Positions 55,336 through 57,443 of a DNA stretch of 64,000 nucleotides are shown in pieces (the stretch's first letter is position 1; each line of letters begins with the position of its first letter). A program made the translations under genes and the position numbers. The notes beneath the pieces are model-generated. The model saw only the letters and a program-made list of their open reading frames with translations. It was not told where the DNA came from and did not search any database. The stretch is from a virus. Taxonomy: Duplodnaviria; Caudoviricetes. Location: positions 96,178 to 160,177 of the IMG/VR virus record IMGVR_UViG_3300037067_007633. One strand, 5' to 3'.

Positions 55336-55680
55336 TTAACATGGTTGTGGAAAAACAATTGATGGAGGAGGGGGTGGTGATAAAGTTGGAGAGTGAGTAT
55401 ATGGATCTTTCCAAGGACTTACTTTAAAAATTCCTTCTATCTTATCTTCTGAAACACTTACCTTTTGACCATTTGATAACAATACTTCATATACCCAAAT
55501 TCTAGAAATATAACTATCACTAACACAATGATAATCGTTTTTTATTATAATTCCTGGTTCGCCATAGCCGGGATTAATAATTACAGAATCTCCAAGTGAA
55601 TATTTTGGAGGTGTTTGTATAACAGCATTAGAACATCCACATAATAGAATTAAAACGGTTAATAATAACAACTTTTTCAT
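55336..55680 (-). CDS. Putative lipoprotein
   Basis: Lipobox LCGC; Pro-rich tail. Confidence 0.6.
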   Translation of the reverse strand: MKKLLLLTVLILLCGCSNAVIQTPPKYSLGDSVIINPGYGEPGIIIKNDYHCVSDSYISRIWVYEVLLSNGQKVSVSEDKIEGIFKVSPWKDPYTHSPTLSPPPPPSIVFPQPC

Positions 55681-56063
55681 AATAAATTTCCTTTCTTTAA
55701 TCCAAATAAATATCTTCCTAGTAATTTTCTTTTTTGTCTATTGGATAATCTATCAAATACACCATTCATTAAAGATAACATAATGACATTATTAATATCA
55801 CATAATTTCCACTTACGTCTATCATTTAAGCTTTGTTTTTCTTCAAAATGATGACCTCCTCCTGGCTCTATAATACACAATATTTTATTATTACGTCTTA
55901 CTACTAAGTCAGCACTACCATATTGCCAAATATGGCGAAGTCCATTATTTCCTGGTTCACTAAATAAATTTTTAAGTGGAACTTCTAATTCAGTTTGGAA
56001 AAAATCCCATTGTGAATGAATATAATTTTCCAGCTTTAATACTTCGTCTGTAATTAATTGCAT
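55677..56063 (-). CDS. Vsr/DUF559-like PD-(D/E)xK nuclease-fold protein (128 aa)
   Basis: TELEVP...SADLVV...IIEPGGGHH...NDRRK..LC; the ORF-track extension to 56162 is only the repeat array. Confidence 0.6.
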   Translation of the reverse strand: MQLITDEVLKLENYIHSQWDFFQTELEVPLKNLFSEPGNNGLRHIWQYGSADLVVRRNNKILCIIEPGGGHHFEEKQSLNDRRKWKLCDINNVIMLSLMNGVFDRLSNRQKRKLLGRYLFGLKKGNLL

Positions 56064-56095
56064 TTTAAAAAATATAACAAAAGTTTTAAGTTTTT

Positions 56096-56170
56096 GTACC
56101 AAACAGTACATAGCCATACAGTACAGAACCGAACAGAACCGGATATTACAGCACAGTACCAAACCACATA
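56096..56170 (-). repeat. Array of 15 in-phase pentamers (conserved KGY/TAT + variable NN); putative guide ncRNA
   Basis: TATGT GGTTT GGTAC TGTGC TGTAA TATCC GGTTC TGTTC GGTTC TGTAC TGTAT GGCTA TGTAC TGTTT GGTAC. Confidence 0.85.
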
Positions 56171-56695
56171 TTAAACAATTTCTTCAAATTCTTCTACTTT
56201 AAATCTACCAAATTTTGGACGATAATCACCAATCGCCTTAATTTGCCCGGCTTCATCTAAAATAGACCTTAAAGTTGCGGCAGTAACACGATTTTCATCA
56301 TAAGTAATATTAAAAGATAATTCCCAGTCATTATAACGTGGGCGACTCTTAATAATACCTTGTCGTTGAATACGAGCAAAACGAGAATCAATTTCATCAT
56401 AAATTCGTTTATTTAGTGGAACTTTATCTGGCTCTACAAAAACCGAACTAAGAATAATTGGTTTATAATTGCCTTTTCCTTTTTTGAAATTTTTAGCCGC
56501 CTCTCTCATTGATGCTTCTAATTGTGTCGATGGAACATAACAACCAATAGTTTCATCAAAATAATTAACTGTATTTGCTTCGGTTGTTGAATCGTACTCT
56601 TTATCCTTCTTTTTTGCTTCATCGTCATTTCTTTTATTAAAACGATTTAAAAGCAGAGGTGCAGTTCCCTTAATCCTTACCTTAATCTGTTTCAT
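56171..56695 (-). CDS. Minimal RAMP/Cas7-like RNA-binding protein
   Basis: IKVRIKGTAPLLL, YVPSTQLEASMREAA, RPRYNDWELSF, Gly-rich C-terminal loop AIGDYRPKFGRF. Confidence 0.7.
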   Translation of the reverse strand: MKQIKVRIKGTAPLLLNRFNKRNDDEAKKKDKEYDSTTEANTVNYFDETIGCYVPSTQLEASMREAAKNFKKGKGNYKPIILSSVFVEPDKVPLNKRIYDEIDSRFARIQRQGIIKSRPRYNDWELSFNITYDENRVTAATLRSILDEAGQIKAIGDYRPKFGRFKVEEFEEIV

Positions 56696-56718
56696 TCTAA
56701 AAACCCTTTATTAAAAAA

Positions 56719-57114
56719 TTAAATAGGAATATCATTATCATCTGAACTATTGATTGGTGGCGATGAATTATCACTAGCTGTAGAATCTTCACTCTTTTTT
56801 CCATTACCAATAAATTGAATTTTGTCTACGTTAACCTTTAACTTAACGTGTTTCACATTATCCTTTTCCCAGGTGTCCATTTTTAATCTTCCTTCTACTA
56901 AAATAGGACTACCTTTAGAACAATATTTTGATAAATTTTCGGCGGTTTTACCCCAAGCTGTACAATCAACAAAACAAACCTCATTAGAATCTTTACCAAT
57001 ATAAGTGTTTAACCCTAAACTAAAATCACAAACCCCCATTCCACTCGGAATATATCGTAATTCTGGGTCTCGTGTTAAATTTCCAATTAAAATTACCTTG
57101 TTATAACTAGCCAT
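56719..57114 (-). CDS. ssb: Single-stranded DNA-binding protein
   Basis: NKVILIGNLTRDPELRY, VEGRL, acidic tail DDNDIPI. Confidence 0.95.
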   Translation of the reverse strand: MASYNKVILIGNLTRDPELRYIPSGMGVCDFSLGLNTYIGKDSNEVCFVDCTAWGKTAENLSKYCSKGSPILVEGRLKMDTWEKDNVKHVKLKVNVDKIQFIGNGKKSEDSTASDNSSPPINSSDDNDIPI

Positions 57115-57128
57115 TATTTTTTCTCCTA

Positions 57129-57443
57129 TTAAATACCATTAATCTTGTTAAATACAGCTAAACACTTCTTACAAACATCTGTTTGTGTTTGTAAATATTC
57201 ATTATCAATATCTACATTTTCAATATCATTAATAGCAGAATATCCACATAATGTTTTACCAAAATATGCAGAATTTTCATTTACAACAGTCAAGTGAAAA
57301 CTGTTGCTTTTTTTACCGTTGGCACAAAATCTATAATCTTGATATACTTTTAATTTCTTTTGTTTTGGTCCTAGCGGAGAAACCCTTTCTAACCCAAAAA
57401 TTGTTTCAGTTAACCAAGCGAACACATTAAAAATCATAATCAT
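57129..57443 (-). CDS. Hypothetical protein
   Basis: H...LCG...CKKC. Confidence 0.5.
   Translation of the reverse strand: MIMIFNVFAWLTETIFGLERVSPLGPKQKKLKVYQDYRFCANGKKSNSFHLTVVNENSAYFGKTLCGYSAINDIENVDIDNEYLQTQTDVCKKCLAVFNKINGI

What the first reader, a model, noticed from the sequence alone, without database searches (positions are those of the whole stretch)
56096..56695. Minimal RAMP/Cas7-like gene followed by a KGY-NN pentamer array: candidate non-CRISPR RNA-guided system
Seen: directly after the stop codon of a 174-aa protein come 15 perfectly phased 5-mers. Their first three bases are constrained (GGT x5, GGC x1, TGT x7, TAT x2) and their last two vary (GT TT AC GC AA CC TC TC TC AC AT TA AC TT AC). 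A weak hairpin and T-run follow. The protein has RAMP-like hallmarks: an N-terminal strand with PLL, a YVPS..L..S.R helix and a Gly-rich C-terminal loop. No cas1/cas2 or CRISPR array is present. Known: Cas7-type RAMPs polymerise along guide RNA with fixed periodicity. Inference: each subunit grips a constant triplet and presents the variable dinucleotide, giving a non-contiguous targeting code, probably against competing phages or host genes. As I recall, this matches the recently reported phage VIPR architecture (GGY/NN repeats); that recollection needs verifying, and this copy is notably TGT-rich.
Basis: partly seen in the sequence, partly recalled or inferred. Interest (0 to 1): 0.95.

Follow-up and report, generated by a model that had tools for sequence, protein, structure and literature searches.

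The report
Phage VIPR system with U-rich guide
This is a real example of the VIPR system described in 2026 (a small Cas7-like protein plus a guide RNA made of five-letter repeats), carried by an uncultured 160-kb phage; it is a known kind, unusual only in that more than half of its repeat units start with T instead of G and in its Vsr-type nuclease partner gene.

Summary
On the minus strand, a 174-aa gene (56171-56695) is followed directly by 15 phased pentamers (56170-56096): GGT x5, GGC x1, TGT x7, TAT x2. No other such run exists in the 160,177-bp genome, and none arose in 100 random genomes.

The protein matches the solved SUSP1 Vipr protein (PDB 36pp, E 1.3e-19), and its model matches Csm3/Cas7. 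Of 171 loci scanned (170 related ones plus this one), 159 carry same-strand GGY/NN-type arrays next to the gene. The VIPR preprints exist and describe exactly this architecture.

So this is a member of a published family, and this scan has already noted VIPR on other DNA (253 findings in at least 207 genomes).

Local particulars:
- There is a single guide of 14-15 units, with a weak 3' hairpin in the family's register.
- T at repeat position 1 is shared with the closest relative (70% identical protein, 63% T). Across relatives, position 1 is G in 88% of units.
- A conserved 128-aa accessory gene (55677-56063) has a Vsr-endonuclease fold (Z 10.3).

No convincing target was found. The best hit is a Nitrospirota multicopper-oxidase gene at 25 of 30 guide bases, which is within chance. 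Expression and activity are untested.

The parts
56171..56695 (-). vipr gene: a 174-aa minimal RAMP (RRM core, thumb, Gly-rich loop G150-F165)
   Evidence: ORF. PDB 36pp_D SUSP1 Vipr at E 1.3e-19. phrog_4652 at E 7e-28, no Pfam hit. Model pLDDT 92. Foldseek top hits are Csm3/Cas7. 147 homologues were found, and the GDYRPxFGRF motif is essentially invariant among them. It is the only copy in the genome.
56096..56170 (-). vrRNA repeat tract: 15 phased pentamers (14 firm; unit 1, TATGT, may be a linker). The scaffold is K-G-Y in 13 units and TAT in 2. The variable NN bases are GT TT AC GC AA CC TC TC TC AC AT TA AC TT AC.
   Evidence: The position directly 3' of vipr on the same strand, and the unit count (14-16), match relatives L003, L001, L002, L094 and L100.
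56077..56097 (-). 3' tail hairpin: stem ACAAAA/TTTTGT with a 9-nt loop. It starts at the AC of the last unit.
   Evidence: -0.7 kcal/mol. It is in register with the family's consensus hairpin ACA....TGT. That consensus has 7 predicted pairs, 6 of them with compensatory changes across 17 tails.
56067..56076 (-). T-rich run (TATATTTTTT) after the tail; a possible 3' end of the roughly 100-nt RNA
   Evidence: Sequence. The consensus terminator scan did not call it because the stem has too few G-C pairs.
55677..56063 (-). vap: a 128-aa accessory gene with a Vsr-like PD-(D/E)xK nuclease fold
   Evidence: It is conserved beside vipr in 49 related loci at 51-67% identity, either after the arrays or directly upstream of vipr. 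D52, E66, G68, G69, H72, Q77, N80, D81, R83 and K84 are invariant. Model pLDDT 88. VIA-align top hit is Vsr endonuclease 1cw0_A (Z 10.3, rmsd 2.3 A, 103 residues), followed by I-Bth0305I and NGO0050.

Best explanation
The locus is a VIPR (Viral Interference Programmable Repeat) system of an uncultured, AT-rich 160-kb phage. It consists of a vipr gene, one vrRNA gene directly after its stop codon, and a Vsr-type nuclease accessory gene (vap).

By homology with the SUSP1 system, the roughly 100-nt RNA would be coated by one Vipr protomer per pentamer. Each protomer buries the three scaffold bases and presents the two variable bases. The filament then reads double-stranded DNA as NN-x-NN-x, skipping one base per unit, usually the codon wobble base. 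This blocks transcription of a gene in a competitor element or the host. Here the Vsr-like Vap may additionally nick or cut the bound DNA.

In this phage and its closest relative the first scaffold base is U more often than G. This subclade's Vipr therefore probably accepts U/G-G-Y.

Shown here: homology, fold, the array and its statistics, conservation of the architecture, the tail register, and the Vap fold.

Inferred: expression, filament assembly, the 1-nt skip rule for this clade, tolerance of U at position 1, Vap cleavage, and the kind of target.
For: Protein:
- PDB match to SUSP1 Vipr, E 1.3e-19.
- Csm3/Cas7 fold.
- The SUSP1 residues reported to contact RNA and DNA are kept, from the alignment read against the text: D177->D157, W178->Y158, R179->R159, R138->R118, K33->K21.

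Array:
- 14-15 phased units, unique in the genome, score 11 against a maximum of 5 in 100 random genomes.
- 159 of 171 loci scanned (170 related ones plus this one) carry same-strand arrays next to the gene.

U-rich scaffold is shared, not a local accident:
- L081/L082 (70% identical Vipr) has 24 T in 38 units over four arrays with unrelated NN.
- L108 has 42% T and L126/127 have 32% T.

Tail:
- Consensus hairpin with compensatory changes in 6 of 7 pairs; the window's tail is in register with it.

Vap:
- Conserved synteny in 49 loci and a Vsr fold at Z 10.3.

Context:
- The genome is a virus record with no Cas1.
- There is no self-target (20 of 30 bases, equal to permuted guides), as the VIPR paper reports for its systems.
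Against: - Only 6 of 15 units carry the canonical GGY. In SUSP1, perturbing GGY abolished silencing, and G1 is read by specific hydrogen bonds.
- The tail hairpin is very weak (-0.7 kcal/mol), and the whole RNA folds no better than shuffles (z -0.27).
- No promoter or terminator stands out.
- No target above chance was found in the phage itself, in IMG/VR, or in 185,579 species genomes.
- The T fraction at position 1 rises as GC falls (Spearman -0.39, p 1e-5). Mutational drift towards A+T is therefore an alternative cause.
Confidence: 0.85

Rival explanations
1. The array is a decaying or weakened vrRNA. AT-biased mutation has eroded G1 in most units, so the guide no longer assembles a full Vipr filament and the system is on its way out.
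For: - 9 of 15 units are not GGY.
- G is found at position 1 in 88% of 4,528 units in relatives.
- The T fraction correlates with low GC.
- GGY perturbation abolished SUSP1 activity.
- The tail is weak.
- No target was found.
Against: - vipr and vap are intact and conserved.
- G2 is kept in 13 of 15 units and Y3 in 15 of 15. Erosion would therefore be confined to one position and go almost only to T, never to A or C in this phage.
- The same bias occurs in four arrays with different NN in a phage whose Vipr is only 70% identical. That is hard to reconcile with independent decay.
Confidence: 0.11
2. The pentamer tract is not an RNA gene. It is either the N-terminal coding extension of the downstream gene (a TTG-started 161-aa ORF, 55677..56162, spans it) or a chance or simple repeat.
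For: the ORF listing reports an open frame across the tract. A gene caller placed a 98-aa ORF over the arrays of relative L081.
Against: - A 5-nt period is incompatible with coding periodicity.
- Vap homologues start at the internal Met and often lie upstream of vipr with no tract attached.
- The run is far beyond chance.
- Equivalent arrays accompany the gene in 159 of 171 loci.
Confidence: 0.01
3. The RNA is made and bound but does not guide attack on a foreign element. Instead it acts as a decoy or regulator, for example by soaking up a rival phage's Vipr or tuning the phage's own genes.
For: Satellite and phage 'solo' vrRNAs that redirect or target other VIPR systems are reported (abstract, text). 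No external target was found here.
Against: - The guide sits in a complete vipr-vap locus, not alone.
- It has no match in its own genome above permuted controls.
- It has no match in 170 related vipr loci (best 23 of 30, and that in a locus fetched by a pattern scan).
Confidence: 0.03

Closest known systems
VIPR systems (Vipr + vrRNA + Vap), with type II of Escherichia phage SUSP1 and the Pseudomonas fulva prophage as the experimental exemplars (bioRxiv 10.64898/2026.04.26.720920, .720927, 2026.10.15.759431)
   Same: - The Vipr protein is homologous (E 1.3e-19 to the solved SUSP1 protein).
- The G-loop and thumb contact residues are kept.
- A same-strand tract of phased pentamers with two variable bases lies next to vipr; 14-15 units falls within the reported range of 9-16.
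- A structured 3' tail follows.
- A small accessory gene is present.
- The genome is a phage, with no cas1 or CRISPR array and no self-target.
   Different: - The protein is only about 30% identical to SUSP1-type proteins.
- There is one guide instead of four.
- The scaffold is U/G-G-Y, with U in 7 of 13 G2-bearing units, rather than GGY. This fits the paper's 'YNNNG' alternative, but its strict YNNGG caller (at least 4 units) would not call it.
- The tail is a simple weak hairpin, not the SUSP1 pseudoknot.
- Vap is a Vsr-like nuclease, not the winged-helix/HTH Vap1.
- The VIPR type (I-VII) could not be assigned because the paper's tables are not held.
Cas7/Csm3 backbone subunits of class 1 CRISPR effector complexes (e.g. 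6IFN, 9G9B, type VII 8Z4L)
   Same: RRM core, thumb and Gly-rich loop. These are the best structural matches in the PDB library dated before the Vipr structures. Both polymerise along a guide with a fixed period.
   Different: - 10-15% identity.
- No second RRM or other elaborations.
- 5-nt rather than 6-nt period.
- No CRISPR array, cas1/2, Cas10 or large subunit.
- The guide information is non-contiguous.
It is not a CRISPR-Cas member.
Vsr (very short patch repair) endonuclease / DUF559-type PD-(D/E)xK nucleases, compared with the Vap protein
   Same: Fold match to 1cw0_A at Z 10.3, rmsd 2.3 A, over 103 of 128 residues. The invariant motif D52 ... E66-x-G-G-x-x-H72 resembles the D ... E-x-D-G-x-x-H motif that I recall for that family.
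   Different: - 18% identity and no Pfam, NCBIfam or PADLOC hit.
- It occurs only beside vipr in this clade.
- Its substrate and activity are unknown.

Membership tests
VIPR | Protein homologous to an experimentally characterised Vipr | tested here: met
   phmmer against PDB sequences finds 36pp_D 'SUSP1 Vipr protein' at E 1.3e-19, query residues 16-171 against chain residues 28-191.
VIPR | Minimal RAMP fold: one RRM core, a thumb and a Gly-rich loop | tested here: met
   AF2 model with pLDDT 92 and pTM 0.86. Foldseek top hits are all Csm3/Cas7 (E 5e-6 to 3e-4, TM 0.5-0.63). The motif G150...G156-D-Y-R-P-K-F-G-R-F165 is invariant or nearly so in 40 homologues.
VIPR | Residues that hold the scaffold bases and the target backbone in SUSP1 (D177, W178, R179, R138, K33; H17; E71/M72) | tested here: met
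   The alignment, read against the text, gives D157, Y158, R159, R118 and K21, all conserved. H17 corresponds to N17; this rests on the shared N-terminus with P0120, and N is common in GGY-strict relatives too. E71/M72 correspond to T57/Q58.
VIPR | Adjacent tandem YNNGG (GGY/NN) repeats, at least 4 units by the published caller | tested here: not met
   Only 6 of 15 units are GGY, and the longest strict run is 2 units. The canonical consensus is not satisfied.
VIPR | Adjacent tandem pentamers of a 'related consensus' (the paper lists NNNGG, YNNNG and NNNNG) | tested here: met
   13 of 15 units are K-G-Y-N-N, which is YNNNG in the paper's register. They lie on the same strand directly after vipr. 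The run scores 11 against a maximum of 5 in random genomes.
VIPR | Invariable structured 3' tail after the repeat tract | tested here: inconclusive
   The window's hairpin is in register with a clade consensus that shows covariation in 6 of 7 pairs. On its own, however, it is worth only -0.7 kcal/mol. The SUSP1 tail is a pseudoknot, so it is not the same structure.
VIPR | Conserved vipr-associated (vap) gene with a DNA-related predicted function | tested here: met
   The 128-aa gene lies beside vipr in 49 loci. It has a Vsr-like nuclease fold at Z 10.3.
VIPR | Viral or proviral context with no CRISPR array or adaptation genes | tested here: met
   G000 is a virus record of 160,177 bp, about 85% complete. 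The Cas1 family finds nothing there, while it is found in 7 of 14 control genomes. No other periodic array exists in the genome.
VIPR | vrRNA is expressed and co-purifies with Vipr | not testable with these tools
   This needs small-RNA sequencing and a pull-down.
VIPR | The guide matches a natural target by the 1-nt skip rule (at least 80% NN match) | tested here: inconclusive
   Own genome: 20 of 30, equal to permuted guides. IMG/VR exact 9-unit windows: 23 of 30 or less. Species genomes: 25 of 30 in a multicopper-oxidase gene of two Nitrospirota MAGs, but about 1 chance hit was expected for the 20-base seed.
CRISPR-Cas class 1 (Cas7/Csm3) | Cas7-family subunit encoded with a CRISPR array and other cas genes | tested here: not met
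   The fold is shared. There is no Cas1, no CRISPR-type repeat-spacer array, and only the single RAMP gene in the genome.

The most novel reading that the evidence does not exclude
The window and its closest relative represent a VIPR subclade with three properties. First, its Vipr has evolved to hold U as well as G at scaffold position 1, which would be a functionally distinct U/G-G-Y code. Candidate linked changes are Q58 in place of W and A154 in place of G in the G-loop. Second, it is armed with a Vsr-type nuclease, so a phage-borne VIPR would cut rather than merely silence its target. Third, the single guide may be aimed at a host gene: the multicopper oxidase of Thermodesulfovibrionales-type Nitrospirota matches 11 contiguous units in codon register.
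Probability: 0.12. Interest if true: 0.55.

Novelty: new member of a known kind. Interest (0 to 1): 0.3.

Why it matters
It confirms that sequence reading alone can pick out VIPR loci even when the canonical GGY scaffold is mostly replaced. It also adds a natural example useful for defining how strict scaffold recognition is. If U at position 1 is tolerated, callers based on GG[CT]NN will miss AT-rich phage systems, and the design rules for engineered vrRNAs widen. The Vsr-like Vap on a phage is a candidate for target cleavage in a viral (not host-defence) VIPR, whereas the discovery paper ties nuclease accessory genes to host-defence types. None of this changes the known principle.

Tried and rejected
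- **Single-protein scan of IMG/VR.** It found no relatives, and the 40-sequence alignment was too diverse to seed a scan. A 15-sequence alignment worked.
- **Whole-RNA folding.** It is uninformative (z -0.27). Only the tail was used afterwards.
- **Promoter and terminator consensus scans.** Nothing above shuffles.
- **Rfam.** No family, including no hammerhead, at 55500-57300.
- **Target in the phage itself.** Skip 0-3 on the own genome gave no self-target; the skip-3 hit is the array itself.
- **Target in IMG/VR.** Three exact 9-unit windows gave only chance-level extensions.
- **Target in species genomes.** One 10-unit window gave the multicopper-oxidase hit. I judge it not significant. The seed had about 1 expected chance hit, and the extension of 5 of 10 further bases has p about 0.08. 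The two hits are orthologues and so count as one event.
- **Follow-up on that hit.** No better match was found in 301 genomes of that order. Those MAGs have no Vipr, and guides of the closest relative do not hit them.
- **Guides of 170 related loci against this phage.** Nothing above permuted controls.
- **Guides of relative L081 against IMG/VR.** No hit.
- **Protein determinants of U tolerance.** The G1-contacting positions (N17, D157) do not differ between U-rich and G-strict relatives. Q58, A154, Y121 and D123 are only candidate correlates from 2-4 sequences.
- **'relatives' search.** Not available for a virus record.
- **VIPR type assignment.** Not possible because the paper's supplementary tables are not held.
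- **Vap family assignment.** Pfam, NCBIfam, PADLOC and a PDB sequence profile gave nothing for Vap. Foldseek was weak. Only VIA-align gave a clear Vsr match.

Full report
**What is there**

All features lie on the minus strand. An ORF at 56171..56695 encodes 174 aa. Its TAA stop is followed at once by 75 bases (56170 to 56096) that parse into 15 phased pentamers. The first three bases of the units are GGT x5, GGC x1, TGT x7 and TAT x2. The last two bases are GT TT AC GC AA CC TC TC TC AC AT TA AC TT AC.

The last unit's AC opens a small hairpin: ACAAAA at 56097-56092 pairs with TTTTGT at 56082-56077, with a 9-nt loop and -0.7 kcal/mol. A T-rich run follows at 56076-56067. The ATG of a 128-aa ORF (55677..56063) comes next.

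The pentamer run is the only one in the 160,177-bp genome. With +1 for a K-G-Y unit and -2 for a miss it scores 11, against a maximum of 5 in 100 Markov-1 random genomes.

Unit 1 (TATGT) may be a linker. Relatives leave 3-14 nt between the stop codon and the first unit.

**The protein**

Pfam has nothing, and PHROGs has an unannotated family (phrog_4652, E 7e-28). A sequence search of PDB chains gives 'SUSP1 Vipr protein' (36pp_D) at E 1.3e-19 over almost the full length.

An AlphaFold model built on 40 homologues has pLDDT 92. The Foldseek PDB copy predates the Vipr structures. In it, the best matches are all Csm3/Cas7 subunits of type III-A and type VII CRISPR complexes (E about 5e-6, TM about 0.6).

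I read the alignment against the cryo-EM paper. The residues that hold the scaffold guanines, the pyrimidine and the target backbone in SUSP1 are kept:
- D177/W178/R179 correspond to D157/Y158/R159.
- R138 corresponds to R118.
- K33 corresponds to K21.
- H17 corresponds to N17.
- E71/M72 correspond to T57/Q58.

The G-loop motif is essentially invariant in 40 homologues.

**Relatives**

147 homologues exist in the 5.8-billion-protein set, nearly all unnamed. I fetched 80 viral loci and 80 metagenome loci, plus 10 loci of the closest proteins.

Of 171 loci scanned (170 related ones plus this one), 159 carry phased pentamer arrays on the strand of the gene, upstream or downstream of it. Counts of 14-16 units are common in the closest clade.

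The 3' tails of the closest clade form a hairpin ACA....TGT that starts at the last unit's AC. Of 7 consensus pairs, 6 show compensatory changes across 17 tails, and the window's tail is in register.

**The literature**

Three preprints describe this architecture as VIPR:
- The discovery paper (10.64898/2026.04.26.720920) covers the Vipr protein, vrRNAs of 9-16 YNNGG units plus a tail, the 1-nt skip rule, seven types, vap1-6, and alternative NNNGG/YNNNG/NNNNG repeats.
- The structure paper (10.64898/2026.04.26.720927) shows one protomer per repeat, burying GGY and presenting NN.
- The competition paper (10.64898/2026.10.15.759431) was consulted.

This scan has already logged 253 VIPR-type findings in at least 207 genomes.

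**What is particular here: the scaffold**

Over 4,528 units in 170 related loci, position 1 is G in 88% and T in 6.6%.

| Locus | T at position 1 |
|---|---|
| Window | 7 of 13 G2-bearing units |
| L081/L082 (70% identical Vipr, GC 0.33) | 24 of 38 units, over four arrays with unrelated NN |
| L108 | 42% |
| L126/127 | 32% |

All four are from DNA with GC of 0.33 or less. Across 119 non-redundant loci, T at position 1 rises as GC falls (Spearman -0.39, p 1e-5). However, other equally AT-rich relatives (L084, L087, L004) keep 100% G.

In the window, G2 (13 of 15) and Y3 (15 of 15) are kept, and position 1 is never A or C. I read this as a subclade that tolerates U at position 1 rather than as decay. 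That is an inference. In SUSP1, perturbing GGY abolished activity.

The two G1-contacting positions do not distinguish U-rich from G-strict relatives. Q58 (W in 27 of 29 others) and A154 (G in 27 of 29) are only candidate correlates.

In the paper's register the units are Y-NN-K-G, which is its 'YNNNG' class. Its strict YNNGG caller would not call this array.

**What is particular here: the accessory gene**

The 128-aa ORF is found beside vipr in 49 loci at 51-67% identity. It lies either after the arrays or directly upstream of vipr.

It has invariant D52, E66-x-G-G, H72, Q77 and N80-D-x-R-K. Its model has pLDDT 88. Its best structural match is Vsr endonuclease (1cw0_A, Z 10.3, rmsd 2.3 A, 103 residues), followed by I-Bth0305I and NGO0050. 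Foldseek alone was weak, and the family libraries gave nothing.

The discovery paper says types III-V carry nucleases or helicases. It links the nuclease-bearing types III and V to host defence islands. This locus and several relatives lie on viral contigs (L003 on 135 kb, L001 on 42 kb).

**What is particular here: a single guide**

There is one array and one vipr gene in the genome. The paper mentions systems with a single vrRNA.

**Target**

Using the published rule (GGY replaced by one wildcard, both strands), I searched several collections:
- **The phage's own genome:** at most 20 of 30 matches. Permuted guides give 20.3 +/- 0.8.
- **IMG/VR, exact 9-unit windows:** eight hits, none above 23 of 30.
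- **One genome for each of 185,579 species, a 10-unit window:** three hits.

Two of those three are orthologous multicopper-oxidase genes of Nitrospirota MAGs. They match 25 of 30 bases, with 11 contiguous units in codon register, reading A-N-P-S-S-S-T-I-Y-T-L.

About one chance hit was expected for that seed in 1.2e12 positions. The extra matches have p of about 0.08. No better copy exists in 301 genomes of the order. The MAGs lack Vipr, and the closest relative's guides do not hit them. I treat this as a weak lead.

No guide from the related loci (244 unique guides called) hits this phage above the null.

**Verdict**

This is a genuine VIPR locus: vipr, one vrRNA and a Vsr-like vap. It is a new member of a published kind, with a U-rich scaffold shared by its subclade. 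Expression, activity and target remain untested.

Noticed in passing
L180:2127-2170 and L181:2036-2079 (Nitrospirota / Thermodesulfovibrionales MAGs): A Tat-signal multicopper-oxidase gene matches the window's guide at 25 of 30 NN bases. Eleven contiguous units are in codon register. The two orthologues differ only at the skipped wobble bases. This is within chance for the size of the database.
   Followed up: partly
window 55677-56162 (-): A TTG-started 161-aa open frame runs through the whole pentamer tract into vap. Gene callers could annotate the guide RNA as coding. In relative L081 a 98-aa ORF was called on the opposite strand across the arrays (L081:2908-3204).
   Followed up: partly
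window 56719-57114 (-): An SSB gene (PF00436, E 5e-30) ends 23 nt before vipr. This adjacency is not seen in the first 90 related loci (tblastn), so it is probably local context rather than part of the system.
   Followed up: partly
L085:3187-3833: An IS605 OrfB/TnpB-type gene (Cas12f1-like_TNB domain) lies about 1.3 kb from the vap gene of a 62%-identical VIPR locus.
   Followed up: no
L087-L092 (P0007 loci): In these relatives vap lies directly upstream of vipr and overlaps its start. No array follows the vipr stop; the arrays lie elsewhere in the locus. Gene order within this clade is therefore fluid (vap-vipr-array versus vipr-array-vap).
   Followed up: partly
L094-L105, L111, L116, L119 tails: Many relatives share a nearly identical tail, ACAGCGGG-loop-CCCGCTGT, whose first bases (AGCGG) mimic a further repeat unit. 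Unit counts from simple pattern callers therefore overshoot by one.
   Followed up: no
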